Counted from the stretch's first letter, positions 3,416-62,241 are shown. The stretch: DNA of 64,000 nucleotides from Gammaproteobacteria bacterium (GCA_040183005.1 JAMPIW010000009.1:50876-114875), one strand, 5' to 3'. Numbers and translations are program-made. The notes: a model not told the origin generated them from the sequence alone.

Positions 3416-3471
3416 CGGTGTGGGGGGTTATTAAGTTCCAGGTTCAACGCCATGCTCTTTATATGTTTGAT

Positions 3472-4792
3472 CAGAAGTGTCCGGTAATTTAATTGAATAG
3501 ATTCAATTGGTTATTGTCTTTCTGCATGCTCATTTGCGTCTCCGCATTTTTAAGTAATTGATCGAGTGGCGTTTTCTCGAAAAGAGTCAGGCTCAAAATC
3601 TGTAGGATTGTGTAAAGCGAAGCCTCGGTATTGAGCCGCTTTTTCACGATGGCGACCAAGACGTAAACCGCGATGGCGATCCATATTTGCGTCTTGACTG
3701 CATTCTCGGTGGTGCCATAGAACCGCTTGATTCGAAGATGCTGTTTGATCCACTTGAAGAATAGCTCGACCTGCCAGCGGCAACGATAAAGCTGAGCGAT
3801 GGTCAGCGCAGGCAGGTCGAAGTTGTTGGTCAGAAAGACCAGAAACCTGTCGTGTTCGGCATCGTAGAACTTGATGCGTCGCAGGTGCTGCGGGTAATCC
3901 TTGCTGGCCTTGCGAGCAGTCAATGCAATGGTCTGGTCGCAGCGCAGTCCAGTGGACTTGTCCACGGTGCGAGAGTAGACGCGACGAAAGAGCAGATTGG
4001 ATTTGCCACGGATGACAAAGAACGCCTGTGCTTGATGCAGGGTGAACCAGCGAGCGAAGTCGGTGAAGCCACGATCCATGATGTAAAAGCTGCCGGCTTC
4101 GGGTATCAGGATATCGAGCACATTGACCTCGTGCATCTTGCCATCGCTGATGTGGATGAAGGTTGGAATGTTGCCGCGCAGGTCGAGCAGCGTATGCATC
4201 TTGACGGCAGCTTTGGTGGAGCGGAAGCGTGCCCACGGAAAGACGCTCAAGCACAGGTCGATGGTCGTGGTATCGAGTGCGTAGACCGTCTGTTCCAGTT
4301 CGACCGCAAAGCTGTCGCTGGCGTAAAGCTTTCTGGCGGTCTGGATTAAGCTCATCGCGAAATCCGCGTAGATGCGACAGTCGCGTTGCTCGTTGGCATC
4401 GGCCAGCGTGCTCTTGGCGATGTTGCCTCGTATGCCCAAGTGATAGAGCTTGGCTTGGTGGGCGCGCAGACAGGTTTCGATGTCGCGCAGGCTTTCGCGG
4501 TAAGTCAGCTGCGCGAACGCCATGCAGAGAAATTGATCGAGATGCGAAAAAGTCTTGGTGGGATATTTGGAAGGGTAGCGCTGCACGCAGCGACGGAATG
4601 TGTGAAGGGGCAAATGCTCCATGAGTTGTGCGAACACCAACTGGCCTGAATACATGACGGAAACTCCTGGGGGGAAAGCCCCAGTTTCCCAAAAAATTCA
4701 CGTTCAAGTCGGTGACACCCCTAAACACACACTTTCCTATTCAACATCATCATGTTATATAGCCGTCTTTGCGAAATTGCCGGACACTTCTG
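3472..4792 (-). mobile_element. IS4-family insertion sequence, copy 1 (1321 bp)
   Basis: 17-bp terminal inverted repeats CAGAAGTGTCCGG.../...CCGGACACTTCTG. Flanked by the 9-bp direct repeat ATGTTTGAT at 3463-3471 and 4793-4801. Nearly identical to the copy at 60763-62083. Confidence 0.85.
3489..4655 (-). CDS. IS4-family DDE transposase (DUF4372-type N-terminus)
   Basis: 388-aa ORF with N-terminus MYSGQLVFAQLMEHL...DQFLCMAFAQLTYRESLRDIE typical of IS4/DUF4372 transposases. Identical to the second copy except one residue. Confidence 0.85.
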   Translation of the reverse strand: MYSGQLVFAQLMEHLPLHTFRRCVQRYPSKYPTKTFSHLDQFLCMAFAQLTYRESLRDIETCLRAHQAKLYHLGIRGNIAKSTLADANEQRDCRIYADFAMSLIQTARKLYASDSFAVELEQTVYALDTTTIDLCLSVFPWARFRSTKAAVKMHTLLDLRGNIPTFIHISDGKMHEVNVLDILIPEAGSFYIMDRGFTDFARWFTLHQAQAFFVIRGKSNLLFRRVYSRTVDKSTGLRCDQTIALTARKASKDYPQHLRRIKFYDAEHDRFLVFLTNNFDLPALTIAQLYRCRWQVELFFKWIKQHLRIKRFYGTTENAVKTQIWIAIAVYVLVAIVKKRLNTEASLYTILQILSLTLFEKTPLDQLLKNAETQMSMQKDNNQLNLFN

Positions 4793-4841
4793 ATGTTTGA
4801 TACAATAATCAAAATTGGTATACGAAAGCAGAGGGCTTCAA

Positions 4842-5087
4842 ATGCAGGCAGAGGATATCAAACGTCTTATTGAAGCGGGGTTGCCCGATTGCCAGGCACA
4901 GGTTAAGGGTGATGACGGCGTCCACTTTGAGGCGGTGATCGTTTCGGGCGCGTTCGAGGGCAAGGGTATGCTTGCTCAGCATAAGATGGTCTATGCCACG
5001 CTGGGTGACCTCATGCATTCGGCGATTCACGCCTTGTCCATGCGCACGTATACCCCACAGGAGTGGGAAAAGATACGAACGCAGTGA
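4842..5087 (+). CDS. ibaG: BolA-family protein IbaG/YrbA
   Basis: BolA-like sequence about 81 aa from the ATG at 4842 with an AGAGGG RBS. Conserved position between mlaB and murA. Confidence 0.75.
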   Translation: MQAEDIKRLIEAGLPDCQAQVKGDDGVHFEAVIVSGAFEGKGMLAQHKMVYATLGDLMHSAIHALSMRTYTPQEWEKIRTQ

Positions 5088-5165
5088 TGAGGCGTGGCTC
5101 CGGCAACAGCCGGAGTGAATTTACTACCTACCTATCTTGTTATGACTCTTTAAATTGGCCGGCAC

Positions 5166-59718: not shown

Positions 59719-59802
59719 GCCTGCTTGTTCGTAGTGTGTTAAGTACCATCGTCCTATATCATTTCACCGGGCCGGCCCAGCGTAGCGTCGCTTTCGACCT
59801 CA

Positions 59803-60585
59803 TCACGCCGCCCGGTTCACGAAATGCCTCACATAGCGTGCATCCAGCCGGTCCCTGTCGAGCAGAATCAGCATGTCCGCTACGTTAATGTGTGGATCCC
59901 AGGCGGGTTCACCGCAGATTACCGCGCCGAGGCGCATATAGGCCTTGAGTAGGGGCGGGGTGCTGGGCGTGGCCGTTATGTCATGCTGAAACAGATCCAG
60001 ACCCGGCACAGCTAACCGGGGTGTGGCGCGCCAGGCATCGGGGCCGAGGTGGTTGTCGCGCAGGTAGTGATAAGTCGCCGCGACCTTTTTCACGCCCATG
60101 CTCATGGGGATGCTGGCGCAGCCCATCATGTAATCGAAGTTGTTGATGTCCATGTAACGTGTGAGTCCTGCCCATAACAGCCCGATAGTGCTGCCATTGC
60201 GGTAGTTGGGGTGGACGCAGGTGCGGCCCACTTCCATGATGCGCGCGGGCATGGTGAGGATGTTGCTCAGGTCAAACTCGGTTTGTGAATAAAAACCACC
60301 GGCTTCGATGGCCTGGGTGTCGGTGAGAATCCGATAGCAGCCTGCCACCTGATCGTTGTTGAGGTCGCGCACCAGCAAGTGCTGGCAGTAGGGATCAAAG
60401 CGGTCGCTTTCCATGCCGGGCTGTTTGCACGAAATACGCGCGCCCATCTCCTCGACAAACATCTGATAACGCAGGCGCTGGGCGGCTTCGATGTCTTTTT
60501 TCGAGATTGCCAGGCCAACATGCAGGTGATGTCCCTGGTGTGATTCGATTTCAAAAGATTGGTTTTGTAGCGCAGCCAAAGCCAT
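59803..60585 (-). CDS. GNAT-fold N-acyl amino acid synthase-like protein (exosortase/OlsB-like type)
   Basis: 260 aa. AAQRLRYQMFVEEMG plus downstream motifs resemble the Acetyltransf_5 / TIGR03694 family (from memory). Confidence 0.55.
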   Translation of the reverse strand: MALAALQNQSFEIESHQGHHLHVGLAISKKDIEAAQRLRYQMFVEEMGARISCKQPGMESDRFDPYCQHLLVRDLNNDQVAGCYRILTDTQAIEAGGFYSQTEFDLSNILTMPARIMEVGRTCVHPNYRNGSTIGLLWAGLTRYMDINNFDYMMGCASIPMSMGVKKVAATYHYLRDNHLGPDAWRATPRLAVPGLDLFQHDITATPSTPPLLKAYMRLGAVICGEPAWDPHINVADMLILLDRDRLDARYVRHFVNRAA

Positions 60586-60762
60586 GACATGAACTCCTCA
60601 TTTTAGTTTAAGGCCGCGCACGCAGCATTCATGTATACCTGTGTATCCTGGCAAAGGATGGCGATTTTGTGTTACGGGGCCATAACGGAATGATGAATTT
60701 TTCTTTACAGCGCGGTGTGACGTTGGACTAAACACACTGGAGTAAATGTTAATATTCTGATT

Positions 60763-62083
60763 CAGAAGTGTCCGGTAATTTAATTGAATAGATTCAATTG
60801 GTTATTGTCTTTCTGCATGCTCATTTGCGTCTCCGCATTTTTAAGTAATTGATCGAGTGGCGTTTTCTCGAAAAGAGTCAGGCTCAAAATCTGTAGGATT
60901 GTGTAAAGCGAAGCCTCGGTATTGAGCCGCTTTTTCACGATGGCGACCACGACGTAAACCGCGATGGCGATCCATATTTGCGTCTTGACTGCATTCTCGG
61001 TGGTGCCATAGAACCGCTTGATTCGAAGATGCTGTTTGATCCACTTGAAGAATAGCTCGACCTGCCAGCGGCAACGATAAAGCTGAGCGATGGTCAGCGC
61101 AGGCAGGTCGAAGTTGTTGGTCAGAAAGACCAGAAACCTGTCGTGTTCGGCATCGTAGAACTTGATGCGTCGCAGGTGCTGCGGGTAATCCTTGCTGGCC
61201 TTGCGAGCAGTCAATGCAATGGTCTGGTCGCAGCGCAGTCCAGTGGACTTGTCCACGGTGCGAGAGTAGACGCGACGAAAGAGCAGATTGGATTTGCCAC
61301 GGATGACAAAGAACGCCTGTGCTTGATGCAGGGTGAACCAGCGAGCGAAGTCGGTGAAGCCACGATCCATGATGTAAAAGCTGCCGGCTTCGGGTATCAG
61401 GATATCGAGCACATTGACCTCGTGCATCTTGCCATCGCTGATGTGGATGAAGGTTGGAATGTTGCCGCGCAGGTCGAGCAGCGTATGCATCTTGACGGCA
61501 GCTTTGGTGGAGCGGAAGCGTGCCCACGGAAAGACGCTCAAGCACAGGTCGATGGTCGTGGTATCGAGTGCGTAGACCGTCTGTTCCAGTTCGACCGCAA
61601 AGCTGTCGCTGGCGTAAAGCTTTCTGGCGGTCTGGATTAAGCTCATCGCGAAATCCGCGTAGATGCGACAGTCGCGTTGCTCGTTGGCATCGGCCAGCGT
61701 GCTCTTGGCGATGTTGCCTCGTATGCCCAAGTGATAGAGCTTGGCTTGGTGGGCGCGCAGACAGGTTTCGATGTCGCGCAGGCTTTCGCGGTAAGTCAGC
61801 TGCGCGAACGCCATGCAGAGAAATTGATCGAGATGCGAAAAAGTCTTGGTGGGATATTTGGAAGGGTAGCGCTGCACGCAGCGACGGAATGTGTGAAGGG
61901 GCAAATGCTCCATGAGTTGTGCGAACACCAACTGGCCTGAATACATGACGGAAACTCCTGGGGGGAAAGCCCCAGTTTCCCAAAAAATTCACGTTCAAGT
62001 CGGTGACACCCCTAAACACACACTTTCCTATTCAACATCATCATGTTATATAGCCGTCTTTGCGAAATTGCCGGACACTTCTG
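60763..62083 (-). mobile_element. IS4-family insertion sequence, copy 2 (1321 bp)
   Basis: Same TIRs as copy 1. One SNP relative to copy 1 (3659 A versus 60950 C). Flanked by the 9-bp direct repeat ATTCTGATT at 60754-60762 and 62084-62092. Confidence 0.85.
60780..61946 (-). CDS. IS4-family DDE transposase (copy 2)
   Basis: 388 aa, identical to copy 1 except L to V at one position. Confidence 0.85.
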   Translation of the reverse strand: MYSGQLVFAQLMEHLPLHTFRRCVQRYPSKYPTKTFSHLDQFLCMAFAQLTYRESLRDIETCLRAHQAKLYHLGIRGNIAKSTLADANEQRDCRIYADFAMSLIQTARKLYASDSFAVELEQTVYALDTTTIDLCLSVFPWARFRSTKAAVKMHTLLDLRGNIPTFIHISDGKMHEVNVLDILIPEAGSFYIMDRGFTDFARWFTLHQAQAFFVIRGKSNLLFRRVYSRTVDKSTGLRCDQTIALTARKASKDYPQHLRRIKFYDAEHDRFLVFLTNNFDLPALTIAQLYRCRWQVELFFKWIKQHLRIKRFYGTTENAVKTQIWIAIAVYVVVAIVKKRLNTEASLYTILQILSLTLFEKTPLDQLLKNAETQMSMQKDNNQLNLFN

Positions 62084-62241
62084 ATTCTGATTTTTTTTGA
62101 CAACGAACCATCCCGGCAATTATCGTACCGGCTGCTCATTGATGGATGATCCTGAAAACGGCAGGGAGCATCCCAATACACTATTTCTTCAGATAACCAC
62201 CGGCGAGGGATCGTCTTTATGAAAAAGACAGAAAAAATCCC

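What the first reader, a model, noticed from the sequence alone, without database searches (positions are those of the whole stretch)
3463..62092. Two near-identical IS4-family copies in direct orientation bracket about 56 kb of essential genes, each with its own TSD
The copies at 3472-4792 and 60763-62083 differ by one SNP and both carry the transposase on the minus strand. Each has a different 9-bp target duplication (ATGTTTGAT versus ATTCTGATT), so they arrived by two independent simple insertions and did not move the intervening DNA as a composite transposon. Homologous recombination between them could excise or invert the region from murA through his, bio, pil and suf. Because those genes are essential, deletion would be lethal, while duplication or amplification is possible. 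Near-identity suggests a recent IS burst.
Basis: seen in the sequence. Interest (0 to 1): 0.6.

Follow-up and report, generated by a model that had tools for sequence, protein, structure and literature searches.

The report
Two ordinary IS4-family insertion sequence copies
Two almost identical copies of a small jumping gene (an IS4-family insertion sequence) landed independently in two gene-free gaps 56 kb apart in a bacterial chromosome that carries many copies of it; the description is correct, and the feature is ordinary.

Summary
Two 1321-bp elements lie at 3472-4792 and 60763-62083 in direct orientation and differ by one SNP. Each has its own perfect 9-bp target duplication (ATGTTTGAT; ATTCTGATT).

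The element is a canonical IS4-family IS. It has one 388-aa DDE transposase with the YREK signature, NCBIfam NF033592 above its cut-off, 13/13 (18/19) terminal inverted repeats, and ends, size and duplication length that fit subgroup IS4Sa.

A related genome has a single ATGTTTGAT at the unoccupied copy-1 site, with mlaB | ibaG-murA-his synteny running straight across it. Relatives of the IS elsewhere (Nitrosomonas ureae, groundwater metagenomes, named ISPosp4 and ISGme2) also make 9-bp duplications, mostly A...AT.

The outer flanks differ, so the pair is not a composite transposon. The window comes from a 182.6-kb contig of an NCBI MAG with at least 13 near-identical copies of this transposase and at least 13 IS66 copies, which fits a recent IS expansion.

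- Direct repeats give deletion or duplication, not inversion.
- The essentiality argument rests on murA, holA, lptE, coaE, nadD and folK, not on his, bio or pil.

Both insertions are intergenic and leave promoter-like sites intact. Low interest.

The parts
3463..3471 (.). Left copy of the 9-bp target-site duplication ATGTTTGAT of IS copy 1
   Evidence: The same 9-mer is single-copy at the homologous unoccupied site in L027.
3472..4792 (-). IS copy 1, 1321 bp, IS4 family, transposase reads on the minus strand
   Evidence: GC is 52.3% against 56.8% for the window.
3472..3490 (.). Terminal inverted repeat of copy 1 at the transposase 3' end (CAGAAGTGTCCGGTAATTT). It contains the transposase stop codon (3489-3491).
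   Evidence: 13/13 perfect and 18/19 complementary to 4774-4792.
3489..4655 (-). Transposase gene of copy 1, 388 aa (Leu333 variant; identical to NCBI MEQ6342961.1, P0123)
   Evidence: YREK motif Y290-R293-E297-K304.
3659..3659 (.). The single difference between the copies (A here, C at 60950), giving Leu333 versus Val333
4774..4792 (.). Terminal inverted repeat of copy 1 at the transposase 5' end (reverse complement CAGAAGTGTCCGGCAATTT)
4793..4801 (.). Right copy of the target-site duplication ATGTTTGAT of IS copy 1
4777..4806 (+). Promoter-like site spanning the IS/flank junction. The -35-like TTGCCG lies in the IS end, followed by an 18-nt spacer and TGaTACAAT (extended -10) in the duplicated target and flank. 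It sits 35 bp upstream of the ibaG ATG (4842). This is a consensus match only.
   Evidence: TGATACAAT is conserved in relative L027. The number of such sites in the region is not above chance (2 found, 1.6 expected).
3116..3415 (+). mlaB-like STAS gene, last gene of the mlaE-mlaD-OMP-mlaC-mlaB cluster. Its stop is 47 bp before the copy-1 duplication.
   Evidence: STAS_2. The start is inferred from the 99-aa orthologue in L027.
4842..6425 (+). ibaG/bolA-like gene (4842-5087) and murA (5166-6425), immediately downstream of copy 1
   Evidence: BolA, EPSP_synthase; MEQ6342963.1, UDP-N-acetylglucosamine 1-carboxyvinyltransferase
4802..60753 (.). Bracketed chromosomal segment of 55,952 bp. In order it holds: ibaG, murA, hisGDCBHAF, plsY, folB, folK, bioD-C-H-F, PhzF, GNAT, ParE toxin-antitoxin, bioB, comF, NUDIX/ThiE, zapD, coaE, pilD-C-B and a pilin, a subtilase, a GGDEF response regulator, rtcA, mazG, a MacAB-like pump, an IS66 element, nadD, proA, holA, lptE, sufBCDS, nfuA-like, and a GNAT N-acyltransferase.
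   Evidence: Pfam. NCBI accessions MEQ6342962 to MEQ6343024 imply 63 annotated proteins.
59803..60585 (-). GNAT (Acetyltransf_5) N-acyltransferase gene. Its start codon lies 169 bp from the copy-2 duplication.
   Evidence: MEQ6343024.1
60754..60762 (.). Left copy of the 9-bp target-site duplication ATTCTGATT of IS copy 2
60763..62083 (-). IS copy 2, 1321 bp, same orientation as copy 1
60780..61946 (-). Transposase gene of copy 2, 388 aa (Val333; identical to P0001, the most frequent variant in the source MAG)
62084..62092 (.). Right copy of the target-site duplication ATTCTGATT of IS copy 2
62097..62126 (+). Promoter-like site TTGACA-18-TATCGT, starting 5 bp beyond the copy-2 duplication and upstream of the ABC exporter gene. 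It is left intact by the insertion. This is a consensus match only.
62239..64000 (+). C39-peptidase/ABC-exporter gene (type I secretion, HlyB-like), running off the window

Best explanation
These are two copies of one active IS4-family insertion sequence. It is 1321 bp long, has 19-bp imperfect terminal inverted repeats starting CAGAAGTGT, and encodes one 388-aa DDE transposase.

Each copy entered the chromosome on its own by ordinary DDE transposition. The transposase makes a 9-bp staggered cut in an AT-rich intergenic target that tends to read A(T)N5(A)T. Repair of the stagger produces the 9-bp direct repeats.

Copy 1 sits between mlaB and ibaG-murA. Copy 2 sits in the divergent region between a GNAT acyltransferase gene and a type I secretion ABC exporter gene. 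Neither breaks an ORF.

The 56 kb between them is native chromosome that the IS pair did not bring in. The pair is one sample of a recent expansion of this IS, with at least 13 near-identical copies in the source MAG.

As 1.3-kb direct repeats, the copies are a substrate for RecA-dependent unequal exchange. Deletion would remove murA, holA, lptE, coaE, nadD and folK and is expected to be lethal. Tandem duplication or amplification is possible, and inversion is not. The intact matched duplications show that no such exchange has become fixed at either copy.

Shown here: the anatomy, the family membership, the 9-bp duplications, the empty site for copy 1, and the copy number from protein accessions. 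Inferred: the cut-and-paste chemistry, lethality of deletion, and promoter retention.
For: - Identity and boundaries: 1320/1321 identical, inverted repeats 13/13 (18/19), matched 9-bp flanks at both copies.
- Family: Pfam DUF4372 (1e-31) plus DDE_Tnp_1 (1e-29). NCBIfam NF033592 'IS4 family transposase' scores 273 bits against a cut-off of 115, and no other transposase model reaches its cut-off.
- Motif: YRCRWQVELFFKWIK, which is Y-(2)-R-(3)-E-(6)-K, at residues 290-304. This is the family hallmark according to PMC2266710.
- Subgroup: the CA------T ends, 1321-bp size and 9-bp duplication fit the IS4Sa row of that paper's Table 1.
- Empty site: relative L027 (GCA_022842345.1) reads ...CGCCATGCTCTTCAT-ATGTTTGAT-ACAATAGCC..., with 89% identity continuing on both sides and the gene order mlaE-D-OMP-C-B, bolA, murA, hisG....
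- 9-bp duplications in relatives (ISPosp4 and ISGme2): AGCGGGTAT (L010/L013), ATCCGAGAT (N. ureae, L016), ACATTAAGT, TATGGCTAC, GTTAATTCT and ATAAATAAT. ISPosp4 has AGATTCGAT and ISGme2 has AGTGGAATA.
- Target bias: among the 13 sites tallied (ISPosp4 and ISGme2 not included), position 1 is A in 11, position 9 is T in 12, and mean GC is 31%.
- Source and copy number: the window proteins are MEQ6342959...961...963...964...3008 and ...3024 on a 182,569-bp contig. The transposase cluster lists 4+4+2+1+1 accessions from the same MAG, and copy 2 itself is not among the four shown for P0001.
- Gene content.
Against: - No read data are available, so the assembly of a MAG contig cannot be checked independently. 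Population-level deletion or duplication junctions cannot be looked for either.
- No empty site was found for copy 2. Homology with the nearest relatives ends about 52 bp to the left of the IS, where their gene order differs. A metagenome scan with the right flank gave only a chance hit. For copy 2 the evidence is the perfect 9-bp pair plus the family-wide 9-bp rule.
- Copy number rests on protein accession lists, not on genome DNA. The MAG is not in the searchable genome set.
- Transposition activity and mechanism are inferred from family membership, not shown.
Confidence: 0.93

Rival explanations
1. The two IS copies and the DNA between them form a composite transposon that moved, or can move, the 56-kb block as one unit, in the manner of Tn10 or Tn5.
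For: Two intact, near-identical IS4-family copies, each with both ends, bracket a segment. IS4-family members IS10 and IS50 are the classic builders of composite transposons (PMC2266710).
Against: - A unit that had transposed would carry one duplication on its outer flanks. Here the outer flanks are ATGTTTGAT (3463-3471) and ATTCTGATT (62084-62092), and each IS instead has its own matched pair.
- The DNA on the two sides of copy 1 is contiguous in a relative that lacks the IS, with mlaB next to ibaG-murA-his. The segment is therefore in its ancestral place.
- The cargo is core housekeeping DNA at host GC content.
- Future mobilisation of a 58-kb unit by the outer ends cannot be excluded in principle. 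It would be very inefficient, and it is not what the sequence records.
Confidence: 0.02
2. One or both copies are assembly artefacts. In this reading a multi-copy IS was placed wrongly or used as a false bridge, so the 56-kb bracket does not exist in any real chromosome.
For: - The source is a metagenome-assembled genome with at least 13 copies of this IS and at least 13 IS66 copies.
- Short-read metagenome contigs of the sister element are demonstrably chimeric across the IS. L011, L012, L014 and L015 carry unmatched flanks.
- Gene order near copy 2 differs from the nearest relatives.
Against: - A false join across an IS gives unmatched flanking 9-mers, as in L011 and L012. Here both copies have perfectly matched pairs.
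- The copies differ by a SNP, and both variants occur in the MAG's protein set, so the repeat was not collapsed.
- Both flanks of copy 1 are neighbours in an independent genome.
- The synteny break near copy 2 lies about 52 bp outside the IS, not at its boundary.
Confidence: 0.04
3. The present arrangement is itself the product of an earlier IS-mediated rearrangement between copies (deletion, translocation or inversion), not of two simple insertions.
For: The genome is IS-rich. Relative to its nearest relatives, the nadD-proA-holA-lptE block is inverted with respect to the GNAT gene, and the suf operon lies between them.
Against: Recombination between two IS copies swaps their flanks and leaves hybrid, unmatched duplications. 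Both copies here retain matched pairs, and copy 1 sits in conserved synteny. The rearrangements seen relative to the relatives do not end at either IS boundary.
Confidence: 0.02

Closest known systems
ISPosp4 (IS4 family; Polaromonas sp. JS666 plasmid 2, NC_007950.1)
   Same: Same architecture: about 1.33 kb (1328 bp), one transposase ORF of about 389 aa ending in the right inverted repeat, nearly the same terminal 13 bp (CAGTAGTGTCCGG versus CAGAAGTGTCCGG), and a 9-bp duplication of the A...AT type (AGATTCGAT).
   Different: Only 60% amino-acid identity over the whole transposase, so it is a different IS, not an isoform. The inner part of the inverted repeat differs.
ISGme2 (IS4 family; Geobacter metallireducens GS-15 plasmid, NC_007515.1)
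   Same: Same length class, the CCGGACAGTAGTG-type ends, and a 9-bp duplication (AGTGGAATA).
   Different: 56% amino-acid identity. The host is a deltaproteobacterial lineage.
Unnamed sister elements in Nitrosomonas ureae CP013341.1, Gallionella and Nitrotoga MAGs, and groundwater or drinking-water metagenomes
   Same: Transposase identity of 91-95% and DNA identity of 86-92% over the full 1321 bp. They make 9-bp duplications and are annotated 'IS4 family transposase'.
   Different: They differ at the tips (CAGTAG..., or a degenerate right end ...GATAATG / ...GCTTTTG) and are mostly seen as single copies on short contigs.
IS10/Tn10 and IS50/Tn5 (IS4-family composite transposons)
   Same: Same family, same 9-bp duplication, and two IS copies bracketing other DNA (PMC2266710).
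   Different: In Tn10 and Tn5 the IS copies are inverted, and the unit carries resistance cargo and one shared outer duplication. Here the copies are direct, each has its own duplication, and the 'cargo' is 56 kb of native housekeeping chromosome. The ends start CA, not CT.
IS-bounded segmental duplication or deletion by homologous recombination between direct IS copies (general bacterial genome-plasticity mechanism; from established knowledge)
   Same: Two direct repeats of 1.3 kb at 99.9% identity, 57 kb apart, form a standard substrate.
   Different: No junction, coverage or hybrid-duplication evidence shows that such an event has occurred here.

Membership tests
IS4 family of insertion sequences | DDE transposase of the DDE_Tnp_1 / IS4 type scoring above curated thresholds | tested here: met
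   Pfam PF01609 scores 104 bits (cut-off 23) and PF14294 scores 107 bits. NCBIfam NF033592 transpos_IS4_1 scores 273 bits (cut-off 115). IS1634, IS701 and IS5 models all fall below their cut-offs.
IS4 family of insertion sequences | Y-(2)-R-(3)-E-(6)-K signature in region C1, with E being the DDE glutamate (PMC2266710) | tested here: met
   YRCRWQVELFFKWIK at residues 290-304. Definition quoted.
IS4 family of insertion sequences | Single transposase ORF without programmed frameshift | tested here: met
   One uninterrupted 388-aa ORF covers 88% of the element in both copies.
IS4 family of insertion sequences | Terminal inverted repeats and target duplication of about one helical turn (7-13 bp) | tested here: met
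   Inverted repeats are 13/13 perfect and 18/19 overall. The duplication is 9 bp at both copies, at at least six other sites of sister elements, and at ISPosp4 and ISGme2. An empty site was found.
IS4 family of insertion sequences | Cut-and-paste transposition through DNA hairpin intermediates | not testable with these tools
   Inferred from family membership only. No PDB relative is detectable by sequence.
IS4 subgroup IS4Sa | Ends CA------T, size 1150-1750 bp, direct repeats 8-10 bp (Table 1 of PMC2266710) | tested here: met
   The ends read CAGAAGTGT (C1, A2, T9), the element is 1321 bp, and the duplication is 9 bp.
IS4 subgroup IS4Sa | Transposase clusters with reference IS4Sa members | not tested
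   No IS4Sa reference sequences or ISfinder access were available. ISPosp4 and ISGme2 are not mentioned in the paper or its supplements.
IS4 subgroup IS10 | Ends begin 5'-CT | tested here: not met
   The ends begin CA, although size (1200-1350 bp) and the 9-bp duplication would fit.
Composite transposon | One target duplication shared by the outer flanks of the whole IS-cargo-IS unit | tested here: not met
   The outer flanks are ATGTTTGAT and ATTCTGATT. Each IS has its own pair.
Composite transposon | Bracketed DNA is foreign to the insertion locus | tested here: not met
   mlaB and ibaG-murA-hisGDCBHAF are contiguous in L027 without the IS. The cargo is housekeeping genes at host GC content.
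Isoform of a named ISfinder element (ISPosp4) | Near-identity to the named element (ISfinder practice: well above 90% at DNA or protein level; from my own knowledge) | tested here: not met
   60% amino-acid identity to ISPosp4 and 56% to ISGme2. ISfinder itself could not be queried.

The most novel reading that the evidence does not exclude
The copy-1 insertion may have rewired expression of the essential ibaG-murA operon. The outward-facing TTGCCG in the IS terminal repeat, 18 nt upstream of the retained TGaTACAAT extended -10, would form a hybrid promoter. The antisense IS would also cut off read-through from the mla operon. More generally, the conserved terminal repeat of this IS clade would carry a portable -35 box placed so that insertions at A(T)N5(A)T sites next to a -10 element create promoters.
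Probability: 0.15. Interest if true: 0.3.

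Novelty: new member of a known kind. Interest (0 to 1): 0.1.

Why it matters
It matters little beyond bookkeeping. The result documents an apparently unnamed IS4-family (IS4Sa-like) element of the ISPosp4 clade that is widespread in Gallionellaceae- and Nitrosomonas-type Betaproteobacteria. It fixes the element's exact ends, its 9-bp duplication and an A(T)N5(A)T target bias. It also shows that the element has expanded to at least 13 copies in one MAG alongside an IS66 expansion.

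For genome interpretation, it marks a 56-kb interval that may undergo IS-mediated duplication. It also provides a useful assembly check: matched duplications indicate correct joins, while unmatched ones in short-read contigs expose chimeras.

Tried and rejected
- Exact-protein look-ups of both transposase variants, murA and P0001 in the assembly index found nothing, so the source MAG's DNA could not be fetched. Genome-wide copy counting and a duplication census by DNA were therefore not possible. Copy number had to be taken from protein accession lists.
- A scan of GTDB representative genomes with the degenerate IS tip found only end fragments at contig edges in Gallionella and Nitrotoga MAGs, plus chance 19-mers in unrelated phyla. 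The source genome is not a representative.
- The search for an unoccupied copy-2 site failed. Relatives carrying the GNAT orthologue have another neighbour (mraZ), and homology stops about 52 bp before the IS. The one metagenome scan, with a 22-mer of the duplication plus right flank, returned a single unrelated contig.
- A sequence search of the PDB for a solved relative such as Tn5 transposase gave no hit at E <= 1.
- ISPosp4 and ISGme2 are not in the IS4 classification paper or its supplements, so subgroup assignment rests on ends, size and duplication length only.
- The alternative of a 7-bp duplication with a 1323-bp IS was considered and rejected on the evidence of related copies.
- Inversion by recombination was rejected on orientation.

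Full report
**1. Observation**

The repeat search finds one long direct-repeat family, with the two members 57,291 bp apart. Read directly and compared base by base, the two copies occupy 3472-4792 and 60763-62083. Both are 1321 bp and differ only at 3659 (A) versus 60950 (C). A self-BLAST of the window finds this one pair (1324 bp, 99.92%) and no further copy or fragment.

The flanking 9-mers are exact pairs as reported. ATGTTTGAT lies at 3463-3471 and 4793-4801. ATTCTGATT lies at 60754-60762 and 62084-62092. Each element has terminal inverted repeats, CAGAAGTGTCCGG(T/C)AATTT, that are 13/13 perfect and 18/19 overall. Each also has a single 388-aa ORF on the minus strand, at 3489-4655 and 60780-61946. 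The SNP changes Leu333 to Val333.

Both duplications begin with A and end with T, so two copies alone could not distinguish a 9-bp duplication with a 1321-bp IS from a 7-bp duplication with a 1323-bp IS. Related copies resolved this (section 3).

**2. What it is**

The ORF carries Pfam DUF4372 plus DDE_Tnp_1. It scores 273 bits on NCBIfam NF033592 'IS4 family transposase', whose cut-off is 115. All other transposase models (IS1634, IS701, IS5, other IS4 models) stay below their cut-offs.

The IS4 hallmark Y-(2)-R-(3)-E-(6)-K is present as YRCRWQVELFFKWIK at residues 290-304. The definition is quoted from De Palmenaer et al. 2008, PMC2266710. In Table 1 of that paper the subgroup IS4Sa is described by ends CA------T, size 1150-1750 bp and direct repeats of 8-10 bp. 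The element's CAGAAGTGT ends, 1321 bp and 9-bp repeats fit that row. They do not fit IS10 (ends CT) or ISH8/IS231 (ends CAT). Clustering of the protein with reference IS4Sa members could not be tested.

**3. Relatives elsewhere**

The protein search returns thousands of homologues. The closest (91-95% identity) come from Gallionella, Nitrosomonas ureae, Burkholderiales MAGs and groundwater or drinking-water metagenomes, and where named they are 'IS4 family transposase'.

Full-length DNA copies were recovered from contigs encoding P0002, P0103 and P0081. They are 86-92% identical to the window element over all 1321 bp. Their flanks give 9-bp duplications:
- AGCGGGTAT in L010 and L013.
- ATCCGAGAT in the complete N. 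ureae genome (L016).
- ACATTAAGT, TATGGCTAC, GTTAATTCT and ATAAATAAT, obtained by pairing the flanks of short chimeric metagenome contigs.

TATGGCTAC and GTTAATTCT do not start with A and end with T. This fixes the IS tips at CAG...CTG and the duplication at 9 bp.

Over 13 sites, position 1 is A in 11, position 2 is T in 8, position 8 is A in 8 and position 9 is T in 12. Mean GC is 31% in hosts of much higher GC. The element therefore prefers AT-rich, roughly palindromic A(T)N5(A)T targets.

The closest named elements found in annotated plasmids are ISPosp4 (60% aa) and ISGme2 (56% aa). ISPosp4 on Polaromonas JS666 plasmid 2 is 1328 bp with tips CAGTAGTGTCCGG and duplication AGATTCGAT. ISGme2 has duplication AGTGGAATA. 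The window element is thus a distinct member of the ISPosp4 clade and is probably unnamed. ISfinder could not be queried.

**4. Source genome and copy number**

Exact-sequence look-ups place the window on a 182,569-bp contig of an NCBI MAG labelled 'Gammaproteobacteria bacterium':
- mlaC is MEQ6342959.
- The copy-1 transposase is MEQ6342961 (P0123).
- murA is MEQ6342963 and hisG is MEQ6342964.
- The IS66 transposase is MEQ6343008.
- The GNAT gene next to copy 2 is MEQ6343024.

The 90% cluster of the transposase contains only proteins of this MAG. Copy 2 has the P0001 sequence but cannot be any of the four accessions listed, so there are at least 13 copies.

The variants combine two polymorphisms, Cys/Arg93 and Val/Leu333, in all four combinations. 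This suggests gene conversion or recurrent mutation among copies. An IS66-family transposase has at least 13 accessions in the same MAG.

**5. Independent insertions, not a composite transposon**

A closely related genome (GCA_022842345.1, L027) has the gene order mlaE-mlaD-OMP-mlaC-mlaB-bolA-murA-hisGDCBHAF with no IS. A reconstructed empty site from the window aligns across the junction at 89% identity.

The alignment shows one ATGTTTGAT exactly where the window has IS copy 1 flanked by two. This is direct evidence for a simple insertion with a 9-bp duplication. It also shows that the DNA to the right of copy 1 is in its ancestral position.

The outer flanks of the pair differ (ATGTTTGAT versus ATTCTGATT), so the block never transposed as a unit.

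For copy 2 no empty site was found. The relatives' GNAT gene neighbours mraZ, and homology fades at about 60710, 52 bp outside the IS. The metagenome scan gave only a chance hit. The matched 9-mer (chance about 4e-6) and the family-wide 9-bp rule carry the case for copy 2.

Matched pairs at both copies also argue against a chimeric assembly and against any fixed recombination involving these copies. By contrast, short-read contigs of the sister element do show unmatched flanks (L011, L012, L014, L015).

**6. Context and consequences**

Pfam annotation gives the following map.
- Left of copy 1: mlaE, mlaD, an OEP protein, mlaC and mlaB.
- Between the copies: ibaG/bolA, murA, hisGDCBHAF, plsY, folB, folK, a methyltransferase, bioD, bioC, bioH, bioF, PhzF, GNAT, a ParE toxin with a putative antitoxin, bioB, comF, YfaZ, NUDIX-ThiE, zapD, coaE, pilD, pilC, pilB, a pilin, a subtilase, a GGDEF response regulator, rtcA, mazG, a MacAB-type pump, a GNAT, an IS66 element, three ORFs without hits, nadD, proA, holA, lptE, sufB, sufC, sufD, sufS, an Nfu protein and a GNAT N-acyltransferase.
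- Right of copy 2: a C39-peptidase ABC exporter that runs off the window.

By established knowledge of proteobacterial essential genes, loss of murA, holA, lptE, coaE, nadD and folK would be lethal.

Because the copies are direct, recombination gives deletion plus a circle, or tandem duplication. It never gives inversion.

Both insertions are intergenic. Copy 1 lies 47 bp after the mlaB stop and 40 bp before the ibaG ATG. Copy 2 lies 169 bp upstream of the GNAT start and about 146 bp upstream of the exporter ATG.

The consensus scan finds TTGCCG-18-TACAAT with a TG extension at 4777-4806. The -35-like hexamer is inside the IS end, and the extended -10 lies in the duplicated target and flank. 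TGATACAAT is conserved in L027. The scan also finds TTGACA-18-TATCGT starting 5 bp beyond the copy-2 duplication.

These are consensus matches at chance density, so they are leads only. They do offer a simple reason why both insertions are tolerated, since the proximal promoters are preserved. They also leave open a hybrid-promoter effect on ibaG-murA.

**7. Verdict**

It consists of two copies of a multi-copy IS4-family element in an IS-rich genome. There is no sign of composite transposition, rearrangement or amplification, and nothing departs from the known biology of the family.

The element appears to be an unnamed member of the ISPosp4 / IS4Sa-like clade, so I file it as a new member of a known kind. 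Interest is 0.1.

Noticed in passing
window 44465-46191: A third complete IS lies in the window. It is an IS66-family element at 44473-46183 (1711 bp) with 16-bp terminal inverted repeats (GTAACTACTCACTCCC, 15/16) and an 8-bp duplication AACGTAAG. Its single 483-aa transposase (44728-46179, +) is MEQ6343008. At least 13 near-identical IS66 transposase accessions occur in the same MAG, including one a few genes to the right of the window (MEQ6343031).
   Followed up: partly
window 44000-49600: A low-GC stretch (42-46% against a 57% average) surrounds the IS66 element. It holds three ORFs without any Pfam family (46691-47476 -, 47961-48836 +, 48814-49170 +). It looks like a small accessory island wedged between the MacAB-type pump genes and nadD.
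   Followed up: no
window 55988-56092: A 54-bp tandem duplication (two copies, 88% identical) sits at the 3' end of the sufC ORF (55212-56105). It gives SufC a tail of about 40 aa rich in Ala, Gly and His, and the ORF overlaps the sufD start at 56102. It may be a real C-terminal extension or a recent slippage event.
   Followed up: no
window 19974-21559: A GNAT gene, a ParE-family toxin (20527-20844, -) and an HVO_A0114-like HTH protein (21197-21559, -) sit between bioF/PhzF and bioB, splitting the biotin genes. Local GC drops to 49%.
   Followed up: no
window about 60710; L033-L038: There is a synteny break relative to the nearest relatives (about 86% DNA identity). In the relatives the GNAT N-acyltransferase gene is flanked by mraZ-rsmH-ftsL-ftsI on one side and by toxin-antitoxin/RES/nadD on the other. 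In the window it is flanked by nfu-sufSDCB and, across IS copy 2, by a C39 ABC exporter. The nadD-proA-holA-lptE block is inverted relative to GNAT. The break does not coincide with the IS boundary.
   Followed up: partly
transposase residues 93 and 333 (window 3659 / 60950 for residue 333): The MAG's copies of this transposase show all four combinations of Cys/Arg93 and Val/Leu333 (P0001, P0121, P0122, P0123). This pattern is expected from gene conversion between IS copies or from recurrent mutation. One copy (P0124, 412 aa) has a 24-aa internal duplication.
   Followed up: partly
L011, L012, L014, L015, L017-L026: Short-read metagenome contigs of the sister IS are chimeric across the element. 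The left and right flanks come from different insertion sites, and the 9-mers only pair up between contigs. This is a caution for reading duplications from metagenome assemblies.
   Followed up: yes
window 15543-15583 and 40649-40689: A 41-nt direct repeat (78% identical) carries reiterated TTTCGTG motifs (…TTTTCGTGAATTTTGTGTTTTTCGTGGAC). One copy lies upstream of bioD and the other at the start of the ABC ATPase ORF at 40653. It could be a shared regulatory or repetitive extragenic element, or chance.
   Followed up: no
L002 5794-5826: An isolated 33-bp match (91%) to one IS end occurs in a groundwater 'Gammaproteobacteria' MAG contig, with no adjoining IS body. It may be a solo inverted-repeat remnant.
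   Followed up: no
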